64,000 bases of DNA from Candidatus Daviesbacteria bacterium (GTDB taxonomy: Bacteria > Patescibacteriota > Microgenomatia > Daviesbacterales > UBA10151): positions 291,365 through 355,364 of the forward strand of contig JAUYKM010000009.1 of NCBI GenBank assembly GCA_030699125.1. The letters are read 5' to 3'. The notes under the pieces were generated by a model. The model had not been told where the DNA came from, ran no database searches, and saw only the letters and a program-made list of their open reading frames with translations. The position numbers were made by a program, and so were the translations under genes. Below, in pieces: positions 508 to 17,737 of this stretch. Each line of letters starts with the position of its first letter. The stretch's first letter is position 1.

Positions 508-1247
508 GGGCTAAAAATAACTCTTCTGGAAACCTCTGTGGTATTACTGGCTCTATCTTGCGCTTTAATATTAAAATTATTTTCACCGTCGTTAAGTTGG
601 ACAATGGTTTTAAATTTTCCTTCATGATCAACGATTGATTGACTGTCATTAATAAATATCAAAGCACCCTCTTCGGTTAAACCACTAATTGTGAGTTGCC
701 TTTTTCCTTGAATTTGTTGGCCATCTGCAGGTTCAAATATTTCTAAGGGAGGTTTCTCATTATCATATATTACTTTTTGTGTTTTCGAAGGAAGGCTTTT
801 TTTGCCGTCTTCATCTACTGTTTGTCCATAGAAATTATTAGTACCCAAGCTTAGAGGAATATTTTCAAACCTGAATGTGCTATCAGCAAAGGCTCTGGCA
901 GTTTCTATTAACTTACCATCAAGGTAAAGTTCTACTTCAGAGTTGGAGACAGCGAAACCATTTATGCTAATTGTGGAAGTATTGGTGGCCTCGTAAGGGA
1001 TTATTAACTCAGGTGGGGCAAGGGTTGCAGATTCAATTTGATCCTCCTTTAAAGCAGAAGGGGGGTTAAAAAAATTGGTAATTAAACCTAAACCGCCAAT
1101 AAAGTTGGGGAGAATCCAATTAATTGAGGCATAAGCAAAAATAGCCACAAAAATCAGAGTGATAATAAGGTTGACCTGACTCTTTTTAGCCTGTCTTCTG
1201 ATAATGCGTCTTCTATACATAATGAGATATACCTTTAGTATAAACAA
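504..1247 (-). CDS. membrane-anchored extracellular protein (hypothetical)
   Basis: 247-aa ORF with an N-terminal TM segment (LIITLIFVAIFAYASINWIL) followed by a soluble beta-rich region. No recognisable catalytic motif. Confidence 0.45.
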   Translation of the reverse strand: MFILKVYLIMYRRRIIRRQAKKSQVNLIITLIFVAIFAYASINWILPNFIGGLGLITNFFNPPSALKEDQIESATLAPPELIIPYEATNTSTISINGFAVSNSEVELYLDGKLIETARAFADSTFRFENIPLSLGTNNFYGQTVDEDGKKSLPSKTQKVIYDNEKPPLEIFEPADGQQIQGKRQLTISGLTEEGALIFINDSQSIVDHEGKFKTIVQLNDGENNFNIKAQDRASNTTEVSRRVIFSP

Positions 1248-1289
1248 TTTATCGTAAGTTTGCTAAAATATTACCTGTTGAGACACTAT

Positions 1290-1360
1290 GCGGGATTAGT
1301 ATAGTGGTAATACGCTACCTTCCCAAGGTAGAGCCGCCGGTCCGATTCCGGTATCCCGCT
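1290..1360 (+). tRNA. tRNA-Gly (anticodon CCC)
   Basis: Cloverleaf read directly from sequence: acceptor GCGGGAT/ATCCCGC, D-arm GTAT-AGTGGTAA-TAC, anticodon stem CTACC/GGTAG with loop TTCCCAA, T-arm with TCCGATT loop. CCA is not encoded. Confidence 0.8.
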
Positions 1361-2855
1361 CTGAATGGGATTTCGCAGGGTTGAAAATTTTCTGACTCTG
1401 CGCGGGTGGGGGCGCGCAGAGTGCTGCAAAGCCCTGATTGTAGCTGACTTCAAGGTGCCGATTAGTCAAAAAGTAGTTCGAGCCGACAGTTTTTGACAAG
1501 AATGCTAATTCTTGGCTTGTATTTTTTGCGCGCGCGATTTTTGCGCACGAAAGTGCGCTACCAATGAAGTTTTTGAACGGTTCGAGCCGACTCGAACCTT
1601 CTGTTTGAATTTTGGTAATTTCCTCATTTTTTCTTAACTTTTCTTCAAAAAGTTCGTTCTTTTTATTCTTGTAAGTTTGAGCATCAACAACACCATCTAA
1701 GTAACTATCAAGTAATATATTTAATTTTTGATCCAGCAGTTGTATTTCTTCTACTAACCTCTTTAGGTTTTGATCTTTATTTTGTTTTTCTAAAAGCTCA
1801 TCCCTTTCCAGCCATTTATACCAATCATCCGCCCACTTTTCAGGCAGAGCTGCATCTGAGACAATCTTTGTTATTTGCGACTCTAATTCAACTTCTGTGA
1901 TCGGTTTTTGAGAGCAAGAGCCAAGTTTTTTAGTACAACTGTAGTAAGTATATTCAACTTTCACTCCCAAGGATTTAACTAATTTAAATTTCTTTTCTCC
2001 AGTCACACTTGCACCGCATTCTCCACACCTTACCAGCCCTAAATACGAGAGATTATGCTTATTATATTTAGGCCTAGATATTATCTTGAACTGTTTTTGT
2101 ACTCGATCAAACAGCTGCTTAGAAATGAACAACTTATGTGTTCCATCATAATATTCTCCTCCATAATAGATAATTCCAATGTAGAATTTATTACTTAAAG
2201 CATTTTTAAGCCTGTCTATTTTTAAAGGATTTCCAAATTTATCGCTAAATCCATTTTTATGAAGAAACAAACAGATATCAGTAAATGTTTTATCACCATC
2301 TGCAAAATACTCAAAAGCTTTTCTTAAAATCCTGGATTTTTCAGGATCAATCTCTATAGTTCCCAATTTTTCATTATTTATATATCCCCAAGGAGCTTTG
2401 GCGGGCAAGACACCATTCCTTAGCTTTTGTCTTAAACCTCTTTTAACATTCTCACTTAAGTTGTCTATGTAATATTTAGACTGACCAAAGGAAATATTTA
2501 ACATAAACTTTCCTTGAGGGGTATTTTCAAACCAAGAGGTAGGAAATTTTAAATCTAACAACTGACCAGTATCTAAAAGATAAATTATTTTTCCTCCATC
2601 AATTGAATTTCTAGCTAATCTATCCGGGTGCCAAGAGATAATACCTTGTGCTTGCCCTTTTTCAACTAACTGTAAAAGTCTTTCAAACTGTTTTCTACCC
2701 GGAGTTTTGGCAGTCTTTGCTTCTTCAATAAATTCAACTATCTCCAAGCCCTCACGTTGGGCAAATTCGGTTAGTTCATCAACTTGTGCCTCTATGGAGA
2801 GAATTTGTTTATCAGCCTCATCTGTTGATTTTCTGCAGTATGCTATATATTTCAT
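1296..2855 (-). CDS. large serine recombinase (resolvase catalytic domain + recombinase domain + zinc ribbon + coiled coil)
   Basis: N-terminus MKYIAYCRKSTDEADKQILSIEAQ carries the resolvase-type catalytic Ser motif. A CGECG..C..C zinc-ribbon and a long C-terminal coiled coil are present. The last ~65 codons of the ORF run through IR-A and antisense to tRNA-Gly, so the true stop is uncertain. Confidence 0.8.
   Translation of the reverse strand: MKYIAYCRKSTDEADKQILSIEAQVDELTEFAQREGLEIVEFIEEAKTAKTPGRKQFERLLQLVEKGQAQGIISWHPDRLARNSIDGGKIIYLLDTGQLLDLKFPTSWFENTPQGKFMLNISFGQSKYYIDNLSENVKRGLRQKLRNGVLPAKAPWGYINNEKLGTIEIDPEKSRILRKAFEYFADGDKTFTDICLFLHKNGFSDKFGNPLKIDRLKNALSNKFYIGIIYYGGEYYDGTHKLFISKQLFDRVQKQFKIISRPKYNKHNLSYLGLVRCGECGASVTGEKKFKLVKSLGVKVEYTYYSCTKKLGSCSQKPITEVELESQITKIVSDAALPEKWADDWYKWLERDELLEKQNKDQNLKRLVEEIQLLDQKLNILLDSYLDGVVDAQTYKNKKNELFEEKLRKNEEITKIQTEGSSRLEPFKNFIGSALSCAKIARAKNTSQELAFLSKTVGSNYFLTNRHLEVSYNQGFAALCAPPPAQSQKIFNPAKSHSERDTGIGPAALPWEGSVLPLY
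1358..1460. repeat. Inverted repeat A, left arm (103 bp; perfect inverted copy of 2960-3062)
   Basis: The reverse complement of 1358-1460 equals 2960-3062 with no mismatch. The arm abuts and overlaps the last 3 nt of tRNA-Gly and contains a 9-bp internal hairpin, CTCTGCGCG..CGCGCAGAG. Confidence 0.9.
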
Positions 2856-2959
2856 GGCAGCGTTACTATTTTTCTTTCCCTCCTAAAAGGAAAAGTTCTT
2901 TCTTTCTAAAACATAAATTTTTGCGTGCGCTTAATCGTTTTTTGTTTTCTTTTTTACTA

Positions 2960-3062
2960 CGGCACCTTGAAGTCAGCTACAATCAGGGCTTTGCAGCACT
3001 CTGCGCGCCCCCACCCGCGCAGAGTCAGAAAATTTTCAACCCTGCGAAATCCCATTCAGAGC
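2960..3062. repeat. Inverted repeat A, right arm (A')
   Basis: Perfect reverse-complement copy of 1358-1460. It is directly contiguous with IR-B, overlapping it by 5 nt. Confidence 0.9.
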
Positions 3063-3163
3063 TCGTTTACGAAAGCGCTCGAACTCAATTCCAATCGACG
3101 CATTAGTTGTCGGCGCCCAGCTCACGTTCGGTCCCAACCTTTTTATTTAATCCCTACCTTTTC
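3058..3163. repeat. Inverted repeat B, left arm (106 bp)
   Basis: The reverse complement of 10899-11004 matches 3058-3163 with 3 mismatches. Confidence 0.85.
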
Positions 3164-3256
3164 CGAAGCTCTGAAACTGGAGGCTCGAACATCCCGCACC
3201 AACTGGTGCGTGATACAAAAAACGCAAAAATTTTAAAGAACTTTTCGCACCCTAAA

Positions 3257-4705
3257 TTATGTACTTATCCAAAATGTATTTATTACACTATCTCCGATAA
3301 ACTCAGCAAGCTGTCCTGTAGGTTTTTGTTCCCCGATACACTTACCAACTCTTACTGTCCAATTAGGACCAGTAGGATCTAATATTTCAGACAATGGATC
3401 AATGACTTCTTTTATATCCTCATTTTTCCTGTCCCAAGTGTCACAGGTGGAAAGCCTATCACTTTTTTTACCATGTCTTTTACTGGAAGCAGCTTCTTTA
3501 ATTTTTGTTTTTGCAGTCTCCCAATCTAAACTTAATTTTTTCAGTACCTCATCTGTTATAAAAAGATTTTCTGACTCTCTACAAGATAGTTTTAAATACT
3601 TTATGTGTTTTTGAGGATTTTGAGATGTATTCTGTGGATGAGTAGCATCGCCATCTATTAAAGCGTATCCAGCGGCGTTCGTAGATGTGCTCCTCATACT
3701 CTCAAAAAGTTTTTCAAGAGTTTTTTGGTATTCATGTATTTCCTGACCATCACAGGGAATAGCTGCTAATTTAACTTTGTGATGTCTAGGGACTTGGCTC
3801 CATATTTTATAGTCATCGTCTCCTTCAACTAACATTAAAGGTGCTCCAAAAAGGGGACCCATTAACGCATGCCCACCTAAACAGGTAGCTAATTCTTGGA
3901 GGGCACTTTCAAACTTAATAGCTTTTTGTTCTTGGACAGAATTATTTAAGTATATTGCGCTCGTATTTTCTCCACCATGGTGTCCTAGAGCAGCTAAAAG
4001 GGTAGTGCTATGAGTAGCAATAATTATTTGTGCGTTATACTTTTCCATTAGCTCAACTAAAAATCCTGCTAAATGTTGTTGAAGATCTGGGTGGAGATGG
4101 GTATCCGGTTCATCAATAAGAAGTAATCTTGTGCTTTGATTCTCAAGTTGCCAAATAGAACATATAGTTAGTAAATCTAAACCTAATGCTAACATTTCAG
4201 TTTCTCCACTACTAAGCTGATCCTTGCTTGAAATTACTTCATCTGTTGATACTCTTTTTAATTCAAAAAAGGGATTTTCTGGTTTTAATTTGAAACTAAA
4301 ATCTGGAAAGAGCTTAATCATTAACTCCGCAATGTCTTTAACTGGTGAATCTACCTTACCTTCCTCAAAATAATAACCCCTTTTGGTAAGATAGGTGTTA
4401 ATTCTTGAGATAACCCTTTCTCTAAACTGAAGTGATAAATTACTTTGTCTATTGGAAGCTCTTGTGGAGGCTGCGACTTCTTGGAGAGCAAAATCAGAGT
4501 TAAATTGTAGTTCACCCGCTCTTTCTGGAGATGTTAAATGACGAGCGTTATGGTCAGCATTGAGTAAAGCTCTTAATAATGCACTTTTGCCTGAACCATT
4601 TCTACCGAAGAGGACAGTTATATCAGTTAGATTTTTCAGAATCCACTTATCCCCACCTAAATGGGGTGGTCTTTGTGCTTCTAATTGGTCAAAATATAAA
4701 GACAT
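3257..4705 (-). CDS. OLD-family ATP-dependent nuclease (ABC-type ATPase N-domain + C-terminal Toprim)
   Basis: Walker A GRNGSGKS, ABC signature LSSGETEML, Walker B LLLIDEPDTHLHP, H-loop IIATHS. C-terminal Toprim motif 1 LMLVEGDDD and motif 2 ALIDGDATH. Only 482 aa, compact relative to P2 Old or GajA. Confidence 0.7.
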   Translation of the reverse strand: MSLYFDQLEAQRPPHLGGDKWILKNLTDITVLFGRNGSGKSALLRALLNADHNARHLTSPERAGELQFNSDFALQEVAASTRASNRQSNLSLQFRERVISRINTYLTKRGYYFEEGKVDSPVKDIAELMIKLFPDFSFKLKPENPFFELKRVSTDEVISSKDQLSSGETEMLALGLDLLTICSIWQLENQSTRLLLIDEPDTHLHPDLQQHLAGFLVELMEKYNAQIIIATHSTTLLAALGHHGGENTSAIYLNNSVQEQKAIKFESALQELATCLGGHALMGPLFGAPLMLVEGDDDYKIWSQVPRHHKVKLAAIPCDGQEIHEYQKTLEKLFESMRSTSTNAAGYALIDGDATHPQNTSQNPQKHIKYLKLSCRESENLFITDEVLKKLSLDWETAKTKIKEAASSKRHGKKSDRLSTCDTWDRKNEDIKEVIDPLSEILDPTGPNWTVRVGKCIGEQKPTGQLAEFIGDSVINTFWIST

Positions 4706-4707
4706 AC

Positions 4708-5211
4708 TTATTTTTTTCTAGTTTCTTCTAAAATATTTCTTACAATAGCTGAAGTATTAGAATTTTGTTTAATCGCTTCTTCCTTAAGCCATTTTGCTTG
4801 GCTTTTTGTAACTACAAGATTTAAACGTGTCAAAGAGTCAGATATGAATTGGGGATTTCCTAACTCTATTCCGTGCGCACTAGTGGCTTTTAATCCGTTT
4901 TCTCTGGGTACTGTATTTCCGGATTCTTGAAATCTTTTCTGGATAATATCTAGGGCAAATCTGCTAGCCCCTTCATCGCTAAATTTGTATTTATTATCTT
5001 CAAGATACTCTTGTGACACCCAAACCTCATATTCTTTTATGAGCCCAGCCGCTGTTTTTGGTAGAGTAGAATAAATCTTTAAAATTACCCTGTACCCGTC
5101 AACTCCTGGTCCAATTTTTCCCACGTAGTCAATCTTTACTTCAACACCTTCTGTTAAAATTATTGTTTGGTTATCAGCTGTCATAAAAATAAGTATAACA
5201 TACTTGCGCAA
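4708..5211 (-). CDS. hypothetical protein with C-terminal ribbon-helix-helix (CopG/Arc-like) DNA-binding motif
   Basis: C-terminus VVTKSQAKWLKEEAIKQNSNTSAIVRNILEE fits the RHH beta-strand/helix/helix pattern. The stop lies 3 nt upstream of the OLD gene start, suggesting translational coupling. Confidence 0.45.
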   Translation of the reverse strand: MRKYVILIFMTADNQTIILTEGVEVKIDYVGKIGPGVDGYRVILKIYSTLPKTAAGLIKEYEVWVSQEYLEDNKYKFSDEGASRFALDIIQKRFQESGNTVPRENGLKATSAHGIELGNPQFISDSLTRLNLVVTKSQAKWLKEEAIKQNSNTSAIVRNILEETRKK

Positions 5212-5325
5212 CTACGCAATAACTTAAATTCCAAAGAATATACTAAGTAAGTATGTTCTAACTTGACGAGTGAGTATTCACTTTTCTATCATTTGTTAAC
5301 TTAAGTTAGAAGTTTAAAACAAGAA

Positions 5326-5886
5326 TCATGAGGCCATTAATCTGTCCCACTCCCTTTGCATATCTAAAATAACTCTTTCCTCTTGAGTAATTGTATTTCC
5401 TGTTTCTAATTTATTAGCTATTTGTGAAACTCGATCTATAACGGTTACAAATAAAGATTGCATAGCATGTCTGAAATCATTCTCATGATCTAAGGCCCTA
5501 TTATGTGCTACTTCATGGACAAATGCACTTATTGCTTCAGTAAATTGGGTATTAAATAATGACTCGTGCATTCCGATAGCTTTTTGGCCTAGATTAATAC
5601 CTTTACTCCCAGTACCATTGTATAAAAATAAGTCATTTGGTAAAGCAACACCCGTAGCAAATTGGGTATAAAGCCTTAGTAATCCTAATTGAGCTAGTTG
5701 ACGCTCATTCGGACTCAAAACAATTTCAAAATCGTCAACTTCATCCTCTGCAGGGTTCATTCGCTCGACGATATTTTTTAATTTACCTCTCAAAGCACCT
5801 AATATCTGATCTTCTGGAGATTGTTCTCTTGTGACATCAACGCTAGCAATTTCTGCTTGGTTTTGTTCGTTTATCAATTCAAGCAA
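5326..5886 (-). CDS. HExxH zinc-metallopeptidase-like protein (ImmA/IrrE- or SprT-like size class)
   Basis: Motif FVHEVAHNRALDHEND gives HExxH plus a downstream acidic ligand candidate. 186 aa, co-directional with and upstream of the RHH and OLD genes. Confidence 0.4.
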   Translation of the reverse strand: MLELINEQNQAEIASVDVTREQSPEDQILGALRGKLKNIVERMNPAEDEVDDFEIVLSPNERQLAQLGLLRLYTQFATGVALPNDLFLYNGTGSKGINLGQKAIGMHESLFNTQFTEAISAFVHEVAHNRALDHENDFRHAMQSLFVTVIDRVSQIANKLETGNTITQEERVILDMQREWDRLMAS

Positions 5887-5964
5887 ATGTTTTCCTGTAA
5901 GATATCCAGCACTTTCTCCTAACTGACCATAAAATTGGTCAGATTGTCGCCATTGAATATATTT

Positions 5965-8397
5965 CTAAATTGCGCTTTGCCCAGTAGGAGCTTCATGTTT
6001 AATTTCAGGAACTAATTCTTCTAATTTATTTACTGCTTCAACAATGCCTGGTAATTGAGCTTCCATTTGTGCTACTCGTGCTTTTTCAGCATCCGACATA
6101 GATGCTTCTTTTTGGACAATACTACCTTTCCCTTCAATCTCTGGTGCTTCAGGTTGTGATACTGGTACACGACCAAATTCCTGTTTTAGTTGCTCCCTTT
6201 GTTGAATAATAAGTCTTTCTTGATCTGATAGTTCAGTGGGATTTTTTCTCATTGCTGCTTGATAAAGCTGTTCTTGTTCAGAAGTCCATGCTTTTACTTC
6301 AATAGCTCTGATAATATCTACTTCAACTACTCCTTTGCTTCCATTTTCAGTTGGTAGCGTAATAACCTCACCAATTGGTGCTGTACCTTCTCGAAATCCT
6401 CCTAGTGGAAGTGGCTGACCTGGCTCTATTTGACTTCTAGCCCTGCGAAATGCTTCTTGAAAAGATTGAAAGTATGAGTCGTCTAATTCTACTTCTACAA
6501 ATAACCCTTCTTCGCTCTCGTTTTTAACATTACGTGCGAGTAGAACATTCTCTTGAGTTACAGAATCATAATCTAATCCAAATGTAGTAACAAACTCACC
6601 TTGAGATGTAAAAATTTTCTTAAAAAGTCTATTTTCTAATCCATATGCTGCAATACCGCGTAATAAATATAAAAGTTTTTGATCATCTTCTTTAGGTTTA
6701 ATTAGAGCATGAAAAAGAAGATCTCTTGGAACTTCTCCTCTTAGTCTTAATCTGATTGTGTTAGGATTGCCTTCTCTCTGTTCAACTGCAATAACTTGAG
6801 AAGATAACCGATCACTTATAAGACGAATGAATCCTGCTGGATCTTTGACATCAGGAAAATCTTCATGAGCAACTTCCATTCCATATTCTTGAGCAAACTG
6901 TTCTTTTCTATATTGAGGAATTGTAGGTGCTTCGTTACTAGCTGCTTCAACTGTACTGAGCTTACTACTCGCCTTGGGCATTCCTATAGATTCCATATAG
7001 GAAGGGCAAACAACATAGCCTTGTTTTTCTAATTCTTTGACTTGATTATCACTTACACCACGATCCCAAGCTATGTAATTCTTTCCCTCAAAAAGTTGTT
7101 GATACCCTCTTTTGTCATATCCCTTATAGGGTAATTGCTTTGCTAATTTTTCAATTACTACAAACGCTCCTTGCCTGTCGAAGCTATATCCAGAATCAAC
7201 ATGTCCTGCCCACAAGAATTCAGAACGTCTAATTTGTTCAACAAGATCATCTTTTGACATTGCTCCTACCATTTCATCAAGATAGCGGCCAAGATCAAAA
7301 GGACTTACAGGTGGTCTATCTATACTCATTCTATATTTCAGATTATTTAGTTGAATTGTTACTTGCTCTGGTCCCACCCAATAATCTTCAGCAGTATCAC
7401 CCTTATCTTTAAAATTCATAACTTGGCCATTAATAAATAAGCGACCTTTAGTGGGTTCTAAACCTTCAGATTTTGGAAGCCATTTTATTGCCCCAAACCT
7501 ATTTTGGTAATCCATATTTTGTAAATAAGGATTTTCAGCAGATACTCCTAAAGTTGGAACTTGTTGAAGTGCTCTTATCACTTCTGCATTATCAGTTTCT
7601 ATGATATAGGTATTGCGACCGGTTCGTTGTGCTTCTTGCATATCAGCAAGCAACCAATCATGTTTTACTATATGAGCAGGGTTTTGACCATGCAAACTCT
7701 CCCATTCTCTATTAACATCAGCCGCTTTTGCTAATCTATAATCTACTGTCCATCCTTCCCCCTGGATCTGGAACTTCTGTACTCCAAAGTCTCGCATAAA
7801 ACGAATAGCAGTCTGTTTAAGCCCAATTCCGTTTCCCCCTGCAGTATTCATGTTCGCTGGTTTTTCAGAATGAGGACTTAAAACTCCTGTGGGATCTTCG
7901 AAAGGCCAGTTTCCTTCTATACGAAAACGTTTACCGCCACCTGGTAGATCTTCAGCTATAAATCTTACTCCGTTCAAAGTACCTGGTGCTTGAGGATTAT
8001 GATCTACAAAATTTTGTACAAGTTCCCTAGTTAGCCATGCAGAATTGTACTCATCTCTTGACTTATCTAAGAAGCTGTCAGTTGCTATTGGCTGCGTATC
8101 AACGCCGCGTTCTCTAAAGAAATATTGTAATAACTTTTGATCAGTTATAACTCCCTCTATCTTTGCTCCATTACCATTTTCTGCAGTTAGAGCAGGAGGA
8201 GATTCAGGTTCGGCCGGTGGCTGTGTTAGTTGAGGTGTTTGCTCGGTTGGTTCACCTGCAACATTAGGATTTGCAGTCGGTTCGCCTCTCTTACCAAAAA
8301 ATCTATCCCTTAATCCTGCAAATCTTGACTTTCCCCCTGCTGGTTCTGGATTTTCCGTAGTCATAGGTTCTGACATATTATATATCCATATTAGCAT
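5965..8397 (-). CDS. large hypothetical protein with N-terminal GHKL (Bergerat-fold) ATPase-like motifs
   Basis: N-box-like RELVQNFVDH (ExxxNxxD), G1-like EDLPGGGKRF and G2-like AGGNGIGLKQ, in the order expected for histidine-kinase/MORC/Hsp90-type ATPases. Pro/Ala-rich N-terminal linker. 810 aa with atypical (GC-rich) composition. Confidence 0.4.
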   Translation of the reverse strand: MLIWIYNMSEPMTTENPEPAGGKSRFAGLRDRFFGKRGEPTANPNVAGEPTEQTPQLTQPPAEPESPPALTAENGNGAKIEGVITDQKLLQYFFRERGVDTQPIATDSFLDKSRDEYNSAWLTRELVQNFVDHNPQAPGTLNGVRFIAEDLPGGGKRFRIEGNWPFEDPTGVLSPHSEKPANMNTAGGNGIGLKQTAIRFMRDFGVQKFQIQGEGWTVDYRLAKAADVNREWESLHGQNPAHIVKHDWLLADMQEAQRTGRNTYIIETDNAEVIRALQQVPTLGVSAENPYLQNMDYQNRFGAIKWLPKSEGLEPTKGRLFINGQVMNFKDKGDTAEDYWVGPEQVTIQLNNLKYRMSIDRPPVSPFDLGRYLDEMVGAMSKDDLVEQIRRSEFLWAGHVDSGYSFDRQGAFVVIEKLAKQLPYKGYDKRGYQQLFEGKNYIAWDRGVSDNQVKELEKQGYVVCPSYMESIGMPKASSKLSTVEAASNEAPTIPQYRKEQFAQEYGMEVAHEDFPDVKDPAGFIRLISDRLSSQVIAVEQREGNPNTIRLRLRGEVPRDLLFHALIKPKEDDQKLLYLLRGIAAYGLENRLFKKIFTSQGEFVTTFGLDYDSVTQENVLLARNVKNESEEGLFVEVELDDSYFQSFQEAFRRARSQIEPGQPLPLGGFREGTAPIGEVITLPTENGSKGVVEVDIIRAIEVKAWTSEQEQLYQAAMRKNPTELSDQERLIIQQREQLKQEFGRVPVSQPEAPEIEGKGSIVQKEASMSDAEKARVAQMEAQLPGIVEAVNKLEELVPEIKHEAPTGQSAI

Positions 8398-8424
8398 AAT
8401 TTTGAGAGCGGCTATGCTATAATA

Positions 8425-9336
8425 ATGCTATTAATAGTCAAGCTAAATATGGCCGGACAAGAACAATCACAATTTGTTAGTGCAGTAAAAAATGTTGGAG
8501 CCCCGGATGGTTCAACATTCGATATTTTAAGAGGTGCTCCAGAAGGAGTAGCTAATCTTAGAGGTAGTGCTTTAGTTAGAATGAGAGAAGTTGTCCAAGC
8601 AAATGAGCCAGAAATTCTCCACTATTTAAATGCAGGACCAGGAATATCCTCAGAGTATGCTATGTCCTCTGGAATCATGCATTCTAAGAAACCTGAGGTA
8701 AAGGCAGATTTAACTAGAGTTTCAATTGAGGAACATCTTGCAGAAGGAAACCGCTGGGGTGCAGTAGGAATACTTGCTTATGCACGAGCAGCAGAACTTC
8801 CTTTAACTGAATATGGTGAACCATTTGTAGCAGAGCAGTATGATACTGCATTGGGTGAAGGTGACCCTGGTGAAGCTTGGCATATTGCTCGAACTATGCT
8901 TTCCGAAGGAGATAAAATAGCAATCATAGAACCAGAAGCACAAGAGCGAGCTACACAAGCATGGACTGAAAGAGAAAAAAGAGCATTCGAACTTCATGCA
9001 GAAGATGTTTTGGCTAGAACTGAACAACCAGAAGGAATGAGAGAAGATTGGGAGCTACGTAATTTATTTGATGAGATGAGATTTCGGGAAGATGGCGGTT
9101 TTAATAGTGAAACTCCAAGTGATCTGGCTAGAAGAATTGCAGAGAAGGTAGTTAATCAAGATTTACAAACTAAAGGCAGAGAGTGGACTGCAATTATTGA
9201 TGCAACAGAAGCAAAAATGTCTGATGACTATATTGCTCAACTTAATAGCAGAGTTTCTCCTACAGCTATTGACAAAGTAAGAGGTTGGTGGAATGGAATT
9301 AGAGCCAAAATAGAGAAAATAATTCCTCCACAATAG
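8425..9336 (+). CDS. hypothetical acidic protein (island cargo)
   Basis: 303-aa ORF divergent from the GHKL gene. Ala/Glu/Arg-rich composition unlike the flanking genome. No recognisable motif. The true start may be the internal MAGQEQ at 8449. Confidence 0.4.
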   Translation: MLLIVKLNMAGQEQSQFVSAVKNVGAPDGSTFDILRGAPEGVANLRGSALVRMREVVQANEPEILHYLNAGPGISSEYAMSSGIMHSKKPEVKADLTRVSIEEHLAEGNRWGAVGILAYARAAELPLTEYGEPFVAEQYDTALGEGDPGEAWHIARTMLSEGDKIAIIEPEAQERATQAWTEREKRAFELHAEDVLARTEQPEGMREDWELRNLFDEMRFREDGGFNSETPSDLARRIAEKVVNQDLQTKGREWTAIIDATEAKMSDDYIAQLNSRVSPTAIDKVRGWWNGIRAKIEKIIPPQ

Positions 9337-9621
9337 CTAGTGGGTCTTCTTAGCTATAACTTTTTGTAATCCACCCTTACCGTATTTAATAATCTGTCCA
9401 ATTTTAGAAACAGTTGAGGTAGAAGTCCCAACTTTTCCTGCTATCTCATCATAGGTTTTTTCTTCTAAAATTAACTTTGCTATTTTTAACCTTTGGGCTA
9501 AATCCAAAATTTCTTCTTCAGTCAAAAGATCATCAATAAAATTAGCTAAATCTTTAGATTTTAATTTTCTTAAGGTATCAACTAATAATTTTCTATCTTT
9601 GTCTAAGTTAAGCTTTGTCAT
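9337..9621 (-). CDS. TrpR-like YerC/YecD family DNA-binding protein
   Basis: 94 aa. The segment TYDEIAGKVGTSTSTVSKIGQIIKYG matches the YerC/YecD Trp-repressor-like HTH family. Confidence 0.55.
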   Translation of the reverse strand: MTKLNLDKDRKLLVDTLRKLKSKDLANFIDDLLTEEEILDLAQRLKIAKLILEEKTYDEIAGKVGTSTSTVSKIGQIIKYGKGGLQKVIAKKTH

Positions 9622-9668
9622 AGTAACATTGTAGCGTTGTAGTATAGTACAACGTCATAACTTTTAAT

Positions 9669-10295
9669 TTAAGTCCTGTAAACAGTTGCCTTACCTTTTT
9701 TCTCTGATTTCAGTTTACCATTTTTAACTAACTCTGATAAATAACTGCTTGCTGAACTTTGAGAAACTTGTAAAAGGTCTCTTACATCTTGATTGTTAAT
9801 TTCTTTTTTCCTTGCTAACTCAACTATTTGATTTAAGTTTTCTTCTCTCCTCTGTTTTCTTTTTTCATTTGCCTTTTGTAAAAGCTCGGAAACTTTTTGA
9901 TCTAACTTTTTTTCTATTTCTTCCTCAATATTAACTTTTGGAACTTCTGGAGCTTTTTCTTCTTTGGGTTGAGGTTTTTCTTTCTTAATTTCTGGGTCAG
10001 GTTTTTGTTCCTCTTGTGGTTTAGGACTTTCTGTTTCTTTCTCCCTTGGTTTTTCTTCCGGAATTTCAGAAACTGGGGGAGATTCGGGGGTCTGGGGTGA
10101 TTGGGGAGGAGTTGGGGAAGGTTCAGGTTCAACTGTAGGAGTTTCAACAACGGGTGGAGTTTCTACTGTTGGTTCTTCTATTTTAACTTCTTCTTCAACT
10201 TTCGGTTGTGGAACTTCCTCTGGAGTTTTCTCTTCTTCGGGCTTAGGTTCTGGCGATGGGGTTTGATCGGTGGGTTGGTTTACATCATCTGCCAT
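9669..10295 (-). CDS. winged-helix DNA-binding protein with Pro/Glu/Lys-rich low-complexity N-terminal region
   Basis: N-terminal ~140 aa are PEPK-rich repeats. C-terminus NLNQIVELARKKEINNQDVRDLLQVSQSSASSYLSELVKNGKL...KATVYR is wHTH-like. Confidence 0.45.
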   Translation of the reverse strand: MADDVNQPTDQTPSPEPKPEEEKTPEEVPQPKVEEEVKIEEPTVETPPVVETPTVEPEPSPTPPQSPQTPESPPVSEIPEEKPREKETESPKPQEEQKPDPEIKKEKPQPKEEKAPEVPKVNIEEEIEKKLDQKVSELLQKANEKRKQRREENLNQIVELARKKEINNQDVRDLLQVSQSSASSYLSELVKNGKLKSEKKGKATVYRT

Positions 10296-10299
10296 GATT

Positions 10300-10898
10300 T
10301 CAGTCTAGCACAGAATCGGCCAAAATGGTGGAATCTGGCCGATTATCTCCCAGAGGTTGGAAGGAAGCGGTTCCGCCGCCCCCGCTCACTTCAGGATAAT
10401 TTCCCAAAAAGGAGGGCAGCACCTTAAAAGAATCTTTCGGAATTTTTAAAAAACTTTCTTGGGTGCTGCCCGACCATCGCGAGAGCCGAGAAAAATAATT
10501 TCGGAGTTTCAAATTACTCGGCTCGAGCCATCGGGAGTCCTCGCGAGCGAAGCTCTCGAGAGCAAGCGAGCGGTATGGAAACAGAAAAGGGTAAAAATTG
10601 CGGCGGGGGCGAAAAGGAATTACCCCCGCAACGGCAGGAGGAACATATACAGATAAAAGATTACCAGAGACTGTAAAGAATAAATCGAAGACTATGATAT
10701 CGGCGAGTCGCCCCCTAGTGGCGACCTCTCGCCCAAAAGCGGGGGTGCCGCTTCCATTATTTTGGGTGGGTGGGTGATGGGAATTTAGAAAGCCTTTAGG
10801 ACTTTTATTTTTTCTGTCTTTTCTTGTCCCGCTTGCGGGACTATAATATAAAAATCGCGCGCATTTATTGTGATTTGCAAAAAATACAAAGAGCAAGA
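10300..10898. other. GC-rich, hairpin-dense non-coding region (candidate large structured RNA or recombination/regulatory region)
   Basis: Numerous perfect stems: AATCGGCCA..TGGCCGATT, GGCAGCACC..GGTGCTGCC, GAGCCGAG..CTCGGCTC, GCGGGGG..CCCCCGC, GGCGAGTCGCC..GGCGACCTCTCGCC, GTCCCGCTTGCGGGAC. ORFs in this stretch are Arg/Gly/Pro-rich and implausible as proteins. Confidence 0.35.
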
Positions 10899-11004
10899 GA
10901 AAAGGTAGGGATTAAAATAAAAGGTTGGGAACGAACGTGAGCTGGGCGCCGACAACTAATGCGTCGATTGGAATTGAGTTCGAGCGCTTTCGTAAACGAG
11001 CTCT
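10899..11004. repeat. Inverted repeat B, right arm (B')
   Basis: Reverse-complement copy of 3058-3163 with 3 mismatches in 106 bp. Confidence 0.85.
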
Positions 11005-11041
11005 CAGTGAATTTTATGGCTCTAAAGAGATATTTAGTGTA

Positions 11042-11647
11042 CTAACAAGCTAGCTCACCTTCACCGCACGAGGAAGGAAGCTCTCTTATTTGAGGGACGC
11101 CTGGTTCCTTGCCGCTGATGATGTAATCCTCAGCTTTTGTGACTTCCCATTCATGTTCATGATTCCAAAGATTCCAGAAATGACGCCACTCGTTCCAACC
11201 AATCCCCAGATGCTGTACGTATATGCTGCTTTCAACCAAAAGCTGGCCTATTTTTCTGCCGGTCATACATGGCATGCTATAACAGTAGACTATGATATCT
11301 TTATCCTGGGGAAGCTCCCGAAATTGTTTTACAATCCTGTCTTTCTCATCATAAGCAGATGTATTGGGATCCTTATAGGCAGGGATATTGGTAGCTCCAA
11401 TGATATGCTCTTTTTCATATTCCTGAGGACTTCTCAAATCGACTAAGACAAAACCTGTGTCGCCTTTATCCATCATCCGTCTTAAGGAATGGGGGCTGAC
11501 ATGTACTGCATTTTCAACAAGATAAAATTCTTTGATTAAGTCTTCTTTGGTTGGTTTTTGCATTCGCTGGTAGACTAAAACAGTTGCTCCACCCACCAAT
11601 GCTCCGACGAGAGCTGCTATAGCAACAATCTTAATAGTTTGATACAT
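11042..11647 (-). CDS. rhodanese-like domain protein with N-terminal membrane anchor
   Basis: N-terminal TM segment. The stretch VLVDLRSPQEYEKEHIIGATNIP followed by IIVYCYSMPCMTGRKIG is a rhodanese fold with an active-site Cys region. Confidence 0.55.
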   Translation of the reverse strand: MYQTIKIVAIAALVGALVGGATVLVYQRMQKPTKEDLIKEFYLVENAVHVSPHSLRRMMDKGDTGFVLVDLRSPQEYEKEHIIGATNIPAYKDPNTSAYDEKDRIVKQFRELPQDKDIIVYCYSMPCMTGRKIGQLLVESSIYVQHLGIGWNEWRHFWNLWNHEHEWEVTKAEDYIISGKEPGVPQIRELPSSCGEGELAC

Positions 11648-11676
11648 ATTTTATCCGTTACTTCTTGTAAACTTAT

Positions 11677-11706
11677 TATAGAAAACCGCGTACTTTCAGT
11701 ACGCGG
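11677..11706 (-). terminator. putative intrinsic terminator downstream of the DsbA-like gene
   Basis: Perfect 9-bp stem CCGCGTACT/AGTACGCGG with a short loop, followed on the minus strand by GTTTTCTAT. Confidence 0.4.
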
Positions 11707-11710
11707 AAGT

Positions 11711-12370
11711 TTATTGGACCTTTAAAATTGCCTCTTCAATAATTTTTTTAAATTCTTCATAGGATTTGGGATTCTGCAATTTTTTATCATTTAGAAAAAA
11801 TGTAGGAGTGGCATTAACTCTAAATCTAATACCACTTTGATAACTATCTTCTATTCTATCTTTTATTTCCTTCAAATCAAGGTCATTTTTAAATCTTTCA
11901 ACATCAAGATTAAGTAAACGGGCATATTCTATAAAGATGTCTCCAACATTTTTCTCACCTGACCAGTTCTTCTGCTTTTCAAAAAGCATATCATGCATCT
12001 GCCAAAAATTGTTTTGTATACCAGCAGCTTCTGCAGCACGAGCAGCAAACTCAGCGTTAATGTGAATTTGTCTTAAAGGAAAATGGCGATAAACAAACTG
12101 TATTTTGTCGCCAAACTCTTGATTTAGTTGTTTGACAACAGGATAATAAGCTCCGCATGCAGGGCACTGGAAATCGCTATATTCAACCAGAGTAACTTTT
12201 GCATCTTTACTACCCTTTACCCAATCAGAAGAAGATACCACGTTAACGGGTTGAGAAATCTGATCTGAAGTTTTATCAGATGGAGCACTATTTGCAAGTT
12301 TTATAACTGAAAAAATTACTATAAAGAGACCTAAAACAGCAAGAATACCAATTTTTATTGCTTTCGACAT
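11711..12370 (-). CDS. DsbA-family thiol:disulfide oxidoreductase (secreted)
   Basis: N-terminal signal/TM segment and a thioredoxin-fold CPAC active site (DFQCPACGAY). Confidence 0.65.
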   Translation of the reverse strand: MSKAIKIGILAVLGLFIVIFSVIKLANSAPSDKTSDQISQPVNVVSSSDWVKGSKDAKVTLVEYSDFQCPACGAYYPVVKQLNQEFGDKIQFVYRHFPLRQIHINAEFAARAAEAAGIQNNFWQMHDMLFEKQKNWSGEKNVGDIFIEYARLLNLDVERFKNDLDLKEIKDRIEDSYQSGIRFRVNATPTFFLNDKKLQNPKSYEEFKKIIEEAILKVQ

Positions 12371-12487
12371 AGAGTTTGCGATTATTATACATCAAATATT
12401 GACAGCAAGGCATTAGATTATTGTCTAGGCCCCGATACATCCAGAACGGTTTAAGTATACATTAAAGGTTCATATAATGGCTCCTAC

Positions 12488-13138: not shown

Positions 13139-13254
13139 AAAGGAGGATAACCGTTCTCTATCTAGGGTGCCAGCACAATTATTTGAAAAACTCCCCTCAT
13201 CTATGTAACATTTACCGTAGATGCTTTTAGCAGAAGTAGTTTAAGGGAAGTAAT

Positions 13255-13326
13255 GCCGACTTAGCTCAGAGGTAGAGCAGCTGTTTCGTAAACAGCAGGT
13301 CACTGGTTCGATTCCAGTAGTCGGCT
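13255..13326 (+). tRNA. tRNA-Thr (anticodon CGT)
   Basis: Acceptor GCCGACT/AGTCGGC, D-arm GCTC-AGAGGTA-GAGC, anticodon stem GCTGT/ACAGC with loop TTCGTAA, T-arm ACTGG-TTCGATT-CCAGT. Confidence 0.8.
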
Positions 13327-13425
13327 CAAAATCCTTAAGCGTTGGAAATTTTCGCGCACTTTTTTTCCATGAATTCTGAATCATTATTTTTGTTATTCAA
13401 TCAATGGGGATTAGGTTTTTTGACC

Positions 13426-17736: not shown

Positions 17737-17737
17737 C

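What the first reader, a model, noticed from the sequence alone, without database searches (positions are those of the whole stretch)
1290..11004. tRNA-Gly-linked ~9.7-kb island built from two adjacent long inverted-repeat pairs around a large serine recombinase
Seen directly: the reverse complement of 1358-1460 is identical (103/103) to 2960-3062. The left arm starts inside the last 3 nt of tRNA-Gly(CCC), and the pair brackets only the serine recombinase gene (about 1.5 kb). Immediately contiguous, 3058-3163 is the inverted copy of 10899-11004 (106 bp, 3 mismatches), bracketing 7.7 kb of cargo. The A' and B arms therefore form one 205-bp unit, with half-copies at each outer end. The cargo is GC-richer and its proteins are Ala/Arg/Gly/Pro-rich, unlike the Lys/Ile/Asn-rich flanks, which is consistent with horizontal acquisition. 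Established: large serine recombinases mediate integration, excision and inversion; 100-bp perfect IRs are much longer than hix/gix-type sites and not typical of att sites. Inference: either an integrated element with unusual composite ends, or a pair of recombinase-driven invertible modules, one of which flips the recombinase gene itself.
Basis: partly seen in the sequence, partly recalled or inferred. Interest (0 to 1): 0.85.

Follow-up and report, generated by a model that had tools for sequence, protein, structure and literature searches.

The report
Recombinase island with mirrored attachment sites
This is a mobile gene island inserted at the end of a tRNA gene in an ultra-small (Patescibacteria) bacterium; it keeps a spare, flipped copy of its recombinase's docking site inside itself, a layout shared by dozens of relatives and often accompanied by a large structured RNA that matches no catalogued family.

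Summary
The two long inverted-repeat (IR) pairs are real: 103/103 and 103/106 matches. They are the only IRs of 40 nt or more in the 64-kb window. They are the arms of three recombination sites that share the core GCTCT:
- tRNA-Gly|x, which looks like attL;
- x|y, a complete attP-like site in opposite polarity, lying between the large serine recombinase (LSR) gene and the cargo;
- y|flank, which looks like attR.

The layout is a family trait. Of 51 full-length homologous LSR loci from Microgenomates MAGs, 45 have about 100-nt IRs around the LSR gene. The LSR 3' end always abuts an antisense tRNA (38 of 38 cases, 16 or more anticodon types). More than 20 loci have the second, abutting IR pair around 0.6-7.7 kb of variable cargo.

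The best reading is an integrated LSR island with a conserved extra inverted attP. Why that extra site is kept is unresolved. Module orientation is almost invariant in assemblies, so free flipping is not supported, although rare flipped or derived forms exist.

The claimed GC contrast is wrong (element 0.379, rest of window 0.383). The GC-rich "cargo" next to attR is a roughly 450-nt structured RNA with strong covariation and no Rfam match. I found no description of either feature in the searchable literature.

The parts
1290..1361 (+). tRNA-Gly(CCC), the integration target. Its last 3-4 nt lie inside the shared core.
   Evidence: ARAGORN; Rfam tRNA 62.4 bits.
1358..1362 (.). Core GCTCT of site 1 (tRNA|x, attL-like), the presumed crossover region.
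   Evidence: The same 5 nt are shared by all three junctions.
It holds LSR codons 466-499, a GC hairpin (ctctgcgcg..cgcgcagag) and a family-conserved GCGAAATCC motif 9-15 nt from the core.
   Evidence: 103/103 with 2960-3062. Hairpin stems covary between elements. x-arm HMM hit E 8.6e-32.
1296..2855 (-). Large serine recombinase gene. The ORF as called is 519 codons. Protein-level conservation ends near residue 480; the tail beyond that is arm sequence plus tRNA antisense.
   Evidence: Pfam PF00239 3.4e-25, PF07508 2.2e-11, PF13408 1.4e-7. More than 6000 homologues, mostly Patescibacteria. Alignment A4.
1476..1493 (.). Motif M (GTTCGAGCCGACAGTTTT; encodes KTVGSN on the LSR strand), just outside the x arm.
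   Evidence: Conserved in all x-arm flanks, and as a second copy beside the inner y arm.
2856..2959 (-). LSR upstream region (U) between the inner x arm and the start codon. It contains the ribosome-binding site AGGAGG.
   Evidence: Read directly from the sequence. No consensus sigma-70 promoter was found here.
2960..3163 (.). Inner site 2: x arm (2960-3062), core AGAGC (3058-3062) and y arm (3058-3163). This is a complete attP-like site in opposite polarity to sites 1 and 3.
   Evidence: x- and y-arm HMM hits. A full y arm lies next to the inner x arm in every related locus examined.
3173..3190 (.). Degenerate copy of motif M (gaaactggaggctcgaac) flanking the inner y arm on the cargo side.
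   Evidence: Read from the sequence. The intact motif is at this position in 17 or more related loci.
3257..4705 (-). Cargo: ABC/OLD-type ATPase resembling the anti-phage proteins AriA (PARIS), PtuA and GajA.
   Evidence: Pfam AAA_21 7.5e-21. PADLOC AriAB 4.7e-27.
4708..9336 (.). Cargo ORFs without recognisable families: 4708-5211(-), 5326-5886(-), 5965-8397(-, 810 aa), 8425-9336(+).
   Evidence: No hits in Pfam, NCBIfam or PADLOC.
9337..10295 (-). Two small DNA-binding proteins that recur in related islands: a YerC/TrpR-like protein (9337-9621) and a winged-helix protein (9669-10295).
   Evidence: Pfam Trp_repressor 5.2e-17. TIGR02531 above its cutoff. Homologues in 4-5 other islands.
10350..10840 (-). 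Structured non-coding RNA of about 450 nt, transcribed inward from the attR end. The mechanical ORF 10300-10896 is not a gene.
   Evidence: nhmmer core 10793-10360, E 1e-99. MFE z-score -4.4. Covariation: 90.7% of cells paired against 46-55% in slid controls, and 285 against 35-56 double-change cells, on 54 sequences. No Rfam match.
10845..10874 (-). Promoter-like element and conserved TTTTTTGC..GCGCGCGATTTTT block upstream of the RNA.
   Evidence: Weak consensus match. The block is conserved in alignment A1. The same block occurs antisense in LSR codons 438-446.
10899..11004 (.). Its inner motif GAGTTCGAG mimics the tRNA T-loop, 4 nt further from the core than in the tRNA.
   Evidence: 103/106 with 3058-3163. 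y-arm HMM hit. Motif positions read.
11005..11041 (.). Host flank (f) between the island and the rhodanese gene at 11042-11647(-).
   Evidence: A Logan contig from SRR13727534 carrying the rhodanese gene ends inside the y arm.

Best explanation
Window 1358-11004 is a genomic island integrated at the 3' end of tRNA-Gly(CCC) by its own large serine recombinase (LSR). It belongs to a large family of such islands in Microgenomates (Patescibacteria).

The two IR pairs are not two separate devices. They are the arms of three recombination sites built on one core, GCTCT:
- site 1 = tRNA end | x arm (attL-like);
- site 3 = y arm | host flank (attR-like);
- site 2 = x arm | y arm, a complete attP-like site in inverted polarity, lying between the LSR module and the cargo module.

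Shown: the y arm carries a T-loop mimic placed 4 nt further from the core than the real T-loop in the tRNA. I recall, without checking it here, that LSR attP half-sites are offset outward from attB half-sites in this way. The x arm carries the last conserved LSR codons, a covarying hairpin and a conserved inner motif.

Inferred: crossover inside the core leaves the tRNA intact. Sites 1 and 3 are in direct polarity, so they are the pair that can excise the island. Site 2 is in opposite polarity, so it can only support inversion of the LSR module (with site 1) or of the cargo module (with site 3).

Inferred, lower confidence: the inner site is kept by selection, because it is present in 45 of 51 relatives whose arm sequences have diverged strongly. 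The near-identity of its arms is maintained by gene conversion. Inversions are rare events rather than a free-running switch. The usual orientation, with the LSR converging on the tRNA and the RNA at the outer end, is the stable state.

The cargo is variable. Here it includes an AriA/OLD-like ATPase. The island backbone often carries a structured RNA of about 450 nt.
For: - Exact arms and shared core.
- LSR domains.
- Family-wide architecture: 45 of 51 full-length homologues (46-75% identity) have IRs around the LSR gene (median 103 nt; 15 pairs are 100% identical). Twenty-eight abut an antisense tRNA and none a sense tRNA. Sixteen have the second IR pair under strict criteria, and more than 20 with junctions read by eye. 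Metagenome contigs add 14 of 16 complete or near-complete LSR loci with IR1 and 10 of 10 antisense tRNAs.
- Insertion character: an empty tRNA-Gly(CCC) flank in L025. In L017 the whole unit lies between tRNA-Val and tRNA-Phe, which are adjacent in L004. In L033 it lies between tRNA-Pro and tRNA-Gly, which are adjacent in L049.
- Core shared by all three sites in 20 elements. Some cores are non-palindromic (L017, GTCCACA), so the inner site can only invert.
- Conserved arm motifs and hairpins with compensatory changes.
- The LSR-less derivative L158 retains tRNA|x ... y|flank, which shows that these two outer sites bound the element.
- Variable cargo.
Against: - No excised circle, no same-species empty site and no read-level junction was seen. 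No circular contigs were found, there were no viral-contig relatives, and an exact search for the arm in metagenomes found nothing.
- No recombination directionality factor was identified.
- Under canonical LSR rules, a free form derived from this locus would carry two inverted attP sites. Integration through the inner one should then give loci with the LSR 5' end next to the tRNA. None was seen in 38 loci. Either the inner site is not integration-competent or the canonical picture is incomplete.
- The assignment of half-sites as P-type or B-type rests on motif spacing read by eye, not on binding data.
- Some loci have x|y instead of flank|y at the outer end (L001, L096, L112, L116), which a single simple integration event does not explain.
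Confidence: 0.75

Rival explanations
1. Programmed inversion system, resembling Hin plus Gin or a shufflon. The LSR (or RecA acting on the 100-nt arms) flips the LSR module and/or the cargo module as a phase switch. For example, flipping could place the LSR gene downstream of the tRNA promoter to trigger excision, or could change expression of the cargo or the RNA. This can coexist with the island reading.
For: - Site polarity alternates (-,+,-), so inversion is the only conservative reaction available to the inner site.
- The arms are kept 97-100% identical within elements although they differ strongly between elements.
- L174 shows the RNA/cargo module in the opposite orientation.
- L158 and L107 are deletion derivatives most simply derived from that flipped state.
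- A four-gene cargo block is inverted between L018 and L038/L068.
- Two contigs consist of a module bounded by its own 123-nt terminal IRs.
Against: - The LSR module has the same orientation in 38 of 38 loci.
- The RNA lies at the outer end in all 20 RNA-containing loci of the genome set, and in 79 of 87 RNA loci there is no x arm just upstream of the RNA.
- L174 is a 2.7-kb contig that an assembler could have mis-joined across the identical y arms.
- The y arms carry terminators and the RNA has its own promoter-like element, so no expression difference between orientations is evident.
- Canonical LSRs do not recombine attL-type with attP-type sites (recalled from the LSR literature, not tested here).
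Confidence: 0.3
2. The inner attP-like copy is a regulatory or insulating element rather than a recombination substrate. In this reading it is an operator where the LSR binds about 100 nt upstream of its own gene (as resolvase binds at res). The paired y arms act as inward-facing terminators that shield the cargo and the RNA from read-through.
For: - The site always sits directly upstream of the LSR upstream region, in fixed orientation.
- In related elements the y arms, read outward from the core, carry UUCG-type hairpins followed by T runs. In alignment A1 the outer y arms are followed by the RNA promoter block.
- The fixed orientation of both modules fits a non-recombining role.
Against: - An operator needs only tens of nucleotides. 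Here both arms (about 100 nt each) and the exact core are retained.
- No promoter was detectable in U or in the arm.
- There are no binding or expression data.
Confidence: 0.25
3. The free form is a circle carrying two inverted attP sites that separate two unique segments, as in the yeast 2-micron plasmid. It integrates through the attP next to the LSR 3' end, and the second attP serves isomerisation or amplification of the episome.
For: - Under canonical LSR rules (recalled, not tested), recombination of sites 1 and 3 is the only reaction that relates this locus to a free form, and that free form would carry two inverted attP sites (logic).
- LSR-3'-fragment-x|y-RNA junctions exist on contigs L096 and L116.
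Against: - No circular contig was found among about 200 loci.
- There is no replication gene in the conserved backbone, and cargo can be as small as 0.58 kb.
- The x|y-RNA junctions seen carry only LSR remnants or lie in tandem chains.
Confidence: 0.2
4. The IRs are a neutral relic of an ancestral rearrangement between nested or tandem elements, inherited by descent and homogenised by gene conversion, and they have no function.
For: - Chains and remnants are common: L001, L096, L112, L116, L137, L031.
- The motif M beside the inner y arm looks like a fragment of the LSR 3' end.
Against: - The feature is retained in 45 of 51 loci across LSRs only 46-75% identical, in streamlined genomes, even where the cargo has shrunk to about 600 bp.
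- The arm boundaries are conserved at LSR codons 461-467.
Confidence: 0.15
5. Assembly artefact, chance repeat or MITE-like dispersed repeat.
For: Contigs often break exactly at the arms. This shows that assemblers struggle with them.
Against: - The same architecture appears in more than 45 independent assemblies from different projects and assemblers.
- A 103/103 match has a chance expectation of effectively zero.
- There are no other copies in the window and no close copies in 2 Mb of related loci.
Confidence: 0.02

Closest known systems
Large-serine-recombinase integrative elements (phiC31, Bxb1 and A118 prophages; SCCmec CcrAB; Tn4451 TnpX; fdxN element XisF)
   Same: - The same three-domain recombinase.
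- Insertion bounded by hybrid sites that share a short core.
- One attP arm mimics the target and is offset outward (sequence reading; the rule itself is recalled from the LSR literature).
- Variable cargo.
   Different: - A complete extra attP-like site in inverted polarity inside the element.
- Identical arms of about 100 nt rather than sites of about 25 nt per half.
- The LSR 3' coding end lies inside an arm.
- Sequence is far from characterised members: CcrB 98.7 bits against a cutoff of 900, XisF 96 against 375. The only PDB relative is a catalytic domain, 3G13, E 2.7e-10.
Hin/H-segment and Gin/G-segment serine invertase systems
   Same: - One IR pair encloses the recombinase gene, as hixL/hixR enclose hin.
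- An adjacent IR pair encloses other genes, as with gix and the G segment (recalled knowledge).
- The site polarity permits only inversion.
   Different: - The recombinase is a 519-codon LSR, not a ~190-aa invertase with a C-terminal HTH.
- The arms are 103-106 nt, not 26-34 nt.
- Orientation is essentially fixed in assemblies.
- The whole unit is itself an insertion at a tRNA.
Shufflons and multiple-inversion systems (R64 Rci/sfx; p15B Min)
   Same: Abutting segments are separated by sites of alternating polarity. Longer chains of modules exist in relatives such as L112 and L116.
   Different: - Shufflons use a tyrosine recombinase and 19-bp sites, and they shuffle alternative gene ends (recalled knowledge).
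- Here there are no alternative coding ends and no evidence of frequent shuffling.
Yeast 2-micron plasmid (FLP/FRT inverted repeats)
   Same: Two IR copies would divide the predicted free form into two unique segments, one of which encodes the recombinase (inference).
   Different: - The 2-micron plasmid uses a tyrosine recombinase and is a eukaryotic plasmid with 599-bp IRs.
- No free form has been observed here.
Tycheposons of Prochlorococcus (tRNA-targeted cargo islands in streamlined genomes)
   Same: tRNA 3'-end-targeted islands with variable cargo, several per genome, in small genomes. This comparison is a lead taken from the abstract of 10.1101/2020.12.28.424599 (listed) and from memory.
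   Different: I did not read that paper in full. As far as I recall, no IR architecture, inner inverted attP or associated RNA is described for tycheposons.
Large 'ornate' bacterial RNAs associated with prophages or tRNAs (GOLLD, ROOL)
   Same: A GC-rich structured RNA of several hundred nucleotides, carried by a mobile element next to tRNA genes (recalled knowledge for GOLLD and ROOL).
   Different: - No match to any Rfam 15 family even at E<=10.
- Different conserved blocks: ACCCACCCACCC, GGCGGCGACCCC, CGCCCCCGCC.

Membership tests
Large serine recombinase (LSR) | N-terminal resolvase-type catalytic domain with the serine nucleophile | tested here: met
   PF00239 E 3.4e-25, covering 2-144 of 145 profile positions. 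R8, S10 and other catalytic-region residues are invariant in 14 homologues.
Large serine recombinase (LSR) | Recombinase domain and zinc-ribbon domain C-terminal to the catalytic domain | tested here: met
   PF07508 2.2e-11 and PF13408 1.4e-7, both above the Pfam cutoffs.
Large serine recombinase (LSR) | Coiled-coil insertion in the zinc-ribbon domain that controls synapsis | not tested
   No structure prediction was run. Residues about 340-430 are Lys/Glu/Leu-rich, which fits a coiled coil but is not a test.
LSR integrative element (attP x attB insertion) | The element is absent from the same site in related genomes | tested here: inconclusive
   L025 has an empty tRNA-Gly(CCC) 3' flank. tRNA pairs that are adjacent in L004 and L049 are separated by the element in L017 and L033. 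All of these are different species.
LSR integrative element (attP x attB insertion) | Outer junctions in direct polarity that share a short core with the element's attP | tested here: met
   GCTCT is present at all three sites in the window. Cores of 4-7 nt are shared in 20 relatives.
LSR integrative element (attP x attB insertion) | Excised circular form with a single attP | not testable with these tools
   No reads were available. No circular contigs were found. The inner site implies two attP sites in any excised form.
LSR integrative element (attP x attB insertion) | Cognate recombination directionality factor | not tested
   Small recurrent proteins exist (YerC/TrpR-like, winged-helix), but none was tested as a directionality factor.
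Hin/Gin-type DNA invertase switch | Small (~190 aa) serine invertase with a C-terminal HTH | tested here: not met
   519-codon LSR with recombinase and zinc-ribbon domains. The Mpi invertase model scores 21 bits against a cutoff of 272.
Hin/Gin-type DNA invertase switch | Both orientations of the segment occur in populations | tested here: inconclusive
   At consensus level the LSR module is in one orientation in 38 of 38 loci. The RNA/cargo module is almost always in one orientation, with exceptions L174, L158 and L107. Read-level heterogeneity could not be tested.
Dispersed repeat (MITE or IS ends) | Many copies of the same repeat at unrelated loci | tested here: not met
   Only the three arm sets occur in the 64-kb window. 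There is no copy with 90% or more identity over the full length in 2 Mb of related loci. The rest of the source genome is not available.
SCC Ccr / XisF / IS607 equivalogs (NCBIfam) | Score above the curated equivalog cutoff | tested here: not met
   CcrB 98.7 against 900, XisF 96.3 against 375, CcrA 84.2 against 700, IS607 39 against 110.
Any Rfam RNA family (for 10350-10840) | Covariance-model match | tested here: not met
   No match at E<=1 in 1-14000. Only chance-level hits at E 4-7 in 10250-11010.

The most novel reading that the evidence does not exclude
The family is a new class of serine-recombinase element in which each module is bounded by identical, outward-pointing half-site arms that meet at shared cores. 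This forms a shufflon-like train: cargo/RNA module, LSR module, tRNA. In this reading the LSR uses the inner inverted attP to invert modules, or to control its own directionality without a separate directionality factor. The associated ~450-nt RNA is a new structured RNA class with a role in the element's life cycle.
Probability: 0.25. Interest if true: 0.85.

Novelty: new variant of a known kind. Interest (0 to 1): 0.72.

Why it matters
1. LSRs are major genome-engineering tools, and their directionality is thought to depend on simple ~40-50-bp sites plus a separate directionality factor. A large natural family that always carries a third, inverted, full-length site with 100-nt arms suggests a mode of site use or control that has not been characterised. 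It is directly testable in vitro with three short DNAs and one protein.

2. These islands sit at many different tRNAs, several per genome, in Patescibacteria. They carry defence-like and other variable genes, so they are probably a main route of gene flux in these reduced genomes.

3. Closely related LSRs target at least 16 tRNA types. This gives a natural series for studying how LSR target choice is re-programmed.

4. The associated RNA was found in more than 90 metagenome contigs and has strong covariation support. It is a candidate new large structured RNA class.

5. Practical point: gene callers extend these LSR ORFs through the arm and the antisense tRNA (tails such as 'TGIEP'), and they call a false 198-aa protein over the RNA.

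Tried and rejected
- Two independently inserted circles with palindromic att sites (x|x and y|y). Rejected because the inner core has opposite polarity to the outer cores, and several cores are non-palindromic (L017, GTCCACA).
- The GC-rich end of the cargo as protein-coding. Rejected because there is no family hit, the ORF length is not conserved (71-198 aa), and the region shows invariant blocks, indels and compensatory pairs.
- The RNA as a cis leader of the next gene. Rejected because the next gene is on the opposite strand in L036 and L038.
- The y arm as a tRNA or another known RNA. Neither ARAGORN nor Rfam supports this.
- Exact look-up of the LSR protein in assemblies: not on record. 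The cargo ATPase and the flanking rhodanese gave only short Logan contigs from SRR13727534 that stop at the arms.
- Viral-contig search with the LSR and with the RNA motif: nothing found.
- Exact 30-mer of the x arm in metagenome contigs: nothing found.
- Search for circular contigs: none. There were only two contigs with 123-nt terminal IRs.
- Sigma-70 promoter scan of the LSR upstream region: uninformative.
- Literature searches on serine recombinase with Patescibacteria, tRNA or IRs, on inverted or internal attP, on LSR-associated ncRNA, and on large ncRNAs in CPR bacteria. None returned a description of this architecture or RNA. A paper on Patescibacteria genomic islands (PMC12455944) does not mention recombinases, tRNAs or IRs.
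- I could not derive a consistent origin for the motif M copy beside the inner y arm. That analysis was left unfinished.

Full report

Yes, for the core of it. The reverse complement of 1358-1460 equals 2960-3062 at all 103 positions. Region 3058-3163 matches the reverse complement of 10899-11004 at 103 of 106 positions. Both matches extend imperfectly by about 15 nt. No other inverted repeat (IR) of 40 nt or more exists in the 64-kb window.

tRNA-Gly(CCC) ends at 1360/1361, so the first arm begins inside its last 3-4 nt. Between the first pair lies one gene, a 519-codon ORF with Resolvase, Recombinase and zinc-ribbon domains. That domain set defines a large serine recombinase, or LSR.

Two sub-claims fail.
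- The LSR ORF runs through arm A into the antisense of the tRNA, so the arm is partly coding.
- The island is not compositionally distinct: 0.379 GC against 0.383 for the rest of the window.

**2. Anatomy**

Writing the three junctions in one orientation gives the following:
- site 1: cgattccggtatccc-GCTCT-gaatg
- site 2, reverse complement: cgctttcgtaaacga-GCTCT-gaatg
- site 3: cgctttcgtaaacga-GCTCT-cagtg

I call the arm shared by sites 1 and 2 'x' and the arm shared by sites 2 and 3 'y'. The locus then reads: tRNA|x - LSR - x|y - cargo - y|flank. This is what an attP (y|x) by attB (tRNA|flank) insertion predicts for the two outer sites. The addition is a complete attP-like site, in opposite polarity, inside the element.

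**3. It is a family trait, not a local accident**

The LSR has more than 6000 homologues, mostly from Patescibacteria. I fetched 75 loci from species-representative genomes and assemblies and analysed them with self-BLAST, ARAGORN and tBLASTn.

Among the 51 loci with a full-length LSR at 45% identity or more:
- 45 have an IR pair around the LSR gene (median 103 nt; 15 pairs are 100% identical);
- the right arm overlaps the LSR 3' end, starting at codons 461-467;
- in 28 loci that arm overlaps, typically by 4 nt, the 3' end of an antisense tRNA, and it never abuts a sense tRNA;
- the tRNAs cover 16 anticodon types (Gly, Pro, Val, Lys, Glu, Gln, Trp, Leu, Ser, Arg).

A second IR pair (82-125 nt, mostly 96-100% identical) abuts the first with a 4-7-nt overlap and encloses 0.58-7.7 kb of cargo. 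It is present in 16 loci by strict criteria and in more than 20 when junctions are read directly.

Metagenome contigs add 14 of 16 complete or near-complete LSR loci with the first IR pair, and 10 of 10 antisense tRNAs. In every locus examined, a full y arm lies next to the inner x arm, even where no outer y arm was found within 10 kb. More distant LSRs (about 30% identity; Magasanikbacteria and Parcubacteria) sit beside tRNAs without IRs.

The MAG titles naming 'Gammaproteobacteria' appear to be mislabelled bins, judging from their tRNA-linked LSR context and their similarity to Microgenomates loci. That is an inference.

**4. It is an insertion**

- L025, a Levybacteria genome, has a tRNA-Gly(CCC) whose 3' flank runs straight into host sequence.
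- In L017 the whole two-IR unit separates tRNA-Val from tRNA-Phe, which are contiguous in L004.
- In L033 it separates tRNA-Pro from tRNA-Gly, which are 8 nt apart in L049.
- L158 is an LSR-less derivative still bounded by tRNA-Trp|x on one side and y|flank on the other.

These are cross-species comparisons. I found no same-species empty site.

**5. What the arms contain**

The y arm has a family-conserved motif, GTTCGAA-T(5-6)-CGTAAA. Its TTCGA core mimics the tRNA T-loop but lies 4 nt further from the core than the T-loop does in the tRNA. I read this for the window and for L010. I recall from structural work on LSRs that the zinc-ribbon motif sits further out in attP half-sites than in attB half-sites; I did not check that here.

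In related elements the y arms, read outward from the core, also carry UUCG-type hairpins followed by T runs, which look like terminators.

The x arm contains:
- the last conserved LSR codons, ending around GFAxL at residue ~480;
- a GC hairpin whose stem covaries between elements;
- a conserved GCGRAWTC motif at a fixed distance from the core.

An 18-nt motif, AAAACTGTCGGCTCGAAC, encodes KTVGSN in the LSR. It flanks the x arm in the LSR gene, and a second copy flanks the inner y arm. I could not explain that second copy.

**6. Which reactions are possible**

The cores of sites 1 and 3 are in direct polarity, and the core of site 2 is inverted. Several cores are non-palindromic (for example GTCCACA in L017). 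Conservative serine-recombinase chemistry therefore allows excision between sites 1 and 3, and only inversion between site 2 and either neighbour. This rules out my first idea of two tandem circles with palindromic sites.

Under canonical LSR rules (recalled knowledge), only a full attP-type site and a full attB-type site recombine without a directionality factor. In that case the only route relating this locus to a free form is recombination of sites 1 and 3, and the free form would carry two inverted attP sites. That resembles the 2-micron plasmid. It is inference; no such circle was seen.

**7. Do the modules flip?**

At consensus level, hardly.
- The LSR 3' end faces the tRNA in 38 of 38 loci.
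- The conserved RNA-bearing end of the cargo is at the outer site, in the same orientation, in all 20 RNA-containing loci of the genome set.
- In 79 of 87 RNA loci with upstream sequence there is no x arm just upstream of the RNA.

There are exceptions.
- L174 has tRNA-Val|x-LSR-x|y directly followed by the RNA, which means the cargo module is flipped. It is a 2.7-kb contig that could be a mis-join across the identical y arms.
- L158 (tRNA-Trp) and L107 (tRNA-Lys) have tRNA|x, then an LSR 3' pseudogene fragment, then the RNA reading away from the tRNA.
- That structure is most simply derived from the flipped state. The proposed event is a deletion between two copies of a 21-nt block, TTTTTTGCGCGCGCGATTTTT. 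One copy lies antisense in LSR codons 438-446 and the other lies upstream of the RNA (inference).
- A four-gene cargo block is inverted between L018 and L038/L068.

Inversion has therefore probably happened on evolutionary time scales, but a free-running switch is not supported. The near-identity of arms within elements, set against strong divergence between elements, indicates concerted evolution. Gene conversion between 100-nt IRs would be enough to produce it (inference).

**8. Other rearranged relatives**

In L001, L096, L116 and L112 the outer site is x'|y rather than flank|y. It is preceded by an LSR 3' fragment or by a second LSR gene, which produces chains of modules. In L137 one LSR ORF reads into a second, truncated LSR. 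This explains the 865-908-aa 'recombinases' listed. These loci show that the sites are recombinationally active over evolutionary time, but they do not yield a single clean model.

**9. The GC-rich 'cargo' is an RNA**

The roughly 500 nt next to the outer y arm (window about 10350-10840, minus strand) is conserved at 75-85% DNA identity across islands whose remaining cargo is unrelated. It is 47-70% GC in genomes of about 37% GC. It has invariant blocks (ACCCACCCACCC, GGCGGCGACCCC, CGCCCCCGCC, GGGCGGGGGCGGCGGA), while the overlapping ORF varies from 71 to 198 aa.

RNAalifold gives a closed multi-helix fold. On 54 non-redundant sequences:
- 61 pairs are 90.7% paired, against 46-55% when the 3' partners are slid by 1-3 columns;
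- 285 cells show changes on both sides, against 35-56 in the slid controls;
- the covariation score is 0.229, against 0.055 or less;
- none of 500 shuffles reached the observed value for four of the five measures; for 'further pair types', 248 of 500 did.

The 18-sequence set gave the same picture. The window copy folds with a z-score of -4.4. No Rfam 15 family matches.

Viral contigs gave none. The RNA is absent from islands with very small cargo, so it is not required for the architecture. Its function is unknown.

**10. Cargo in this window**

- An ABC/OLD-type ATPase resembling AriA (PARIS), PtuA and GajA.
- Four ORFs without family hits.
- Two small DNA-binding proteins that recur in related islands.

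**11. Comparison with known systems and novelty**

The element works like an LSR integrative island and meets the LSR domain definition. It is not a member of the Ccr, XisF, IS607 or Mpi equivalogs and is remote from solved LSRs. It resembles Hin (recombinase inside an IR pair), Gin or a shufflon (abutting IR-bounded segments) and the 2-micron plasmid (IRs dividing a recombinase-bearing molecule). It fails the defining features of each, as set out in the membership table.

Five literature searches and one targeted paper read found no description of the inner inverted attP architecture or of the RNA. The library is limited to open-access papers, so absence there is not proof of novelty.

I rate the element a new variant of a known kind. 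The island reading has confidence of about 0.75. The reason for the inner site is open, and the alternatives are listed under the rival explanations.

Noticed in passing
window 10350-10840 (-); also L001, L010, L014, L016, L018, L020, L022, L023 (two copies), L034-L036, L038, L040, L050, L053, L065, L068 and about 93 metagenome loci (L078-L197): A structured RNA of about 450 nt with invariant C-rich and G-rich blocks and strong covariation. It matches no Rfam family. It lies at the attR end of these islands and overlaps a spurious 198-aa ORF.
   Followed up: yes
window 41101-44561: tRNA-Lys(TTT) at 41101-41173 is followed by a 78-nt direct repeat pair (41170-41247 and 44484-44561, 76% identity). 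The first copy overlaps the tRNA 3' end by 4 nt. The pair encloses 3.3 kb with three ORFs (one with a NYN domain) and no recognisable integrase, and a Fic-domain gene lies just outside. This may be a second, integrase-less island.
   Followed up: partly
window 17181-17245 and 17729-17793: A 65-nt direct repeat (89% identity) 548 nt apart, containing a hairpin-like AAAGCCCGAAATACCACTTG..CCGAGCTTC segment.
   Followed up: no
LSR ORF tails, e.g. window 1296-1357; P0001, P0003, P0004, P0040 and others: Gene callers extend these LSR ORFs through the att arm and across the antisense tRNA. The resulting C-terminal tails look 'conserved' (ERDTGIEP...), but they are translations of the tRNA T-arm antisense.
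   Followed up: yes
L137 11590-14160; proteins P0002, P0006, P0013, P0017, P0024 and others (865-908 aa): Some 'double-length recombinases' are one LSR ORF reading through its x arm into a second LSR that lacks about the first 120 residues. This points to nested or tandem elements rather than a new domain architecture.
   Followed up: partly
L158 3517-6887; L107 1956-2920: LSR-less derivatives with the order tRNA|x, LSR 3' pseudogene fragment, RNA, cargo, y|flank. They may be elements mobilisable in trans. They appear to have arisen by deletion between two copies of a 21-nt GCGCGCG block.
   Followed up: partly
L043 1-1162: The contig end carries a 448-nt perfect inverted duplication of the LSR 5' region on either side of the inner y|x site. 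It is either a real head-to-head LSR pair or an assembly foldback.
   Followed up: partly
x-arm hairpin (window 1398-1423 and 2997-3022; L040 9830-9853) and the hairpin 3' of the RNA (window about 10285-10325; L018, L022, L034): Between elements the hairpin loops occur in both orientations (CCCCCACCC and GGGTGGGGG; ATTCCACCATT and AATGGTGGAAT). Small loop inversions across the stems would produce this.
   Followed up: no
many loci, e.g. L007, L009, L025, L035 (start in the x arm); L016, L044, L052, L159 (end in the x arm); L085, L091 (123-nt terminal IRs): Contigs frequently begin or end exactly in the arms. These islands therefore fragment Patescibacteria MAG assemblies and may be under-represented or mis-joined in bins.
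   Followed up: partly
L003 11495-11536 and 14013-14054: A 42-nt direct repeat of the tRNA-Gly(GCC) 3' part brackets a further 2.5-kb insertion between the LSR element and the intact tRNA. This looks like a second, different integrative element stacked at the same tRNA.
   Followed up: no
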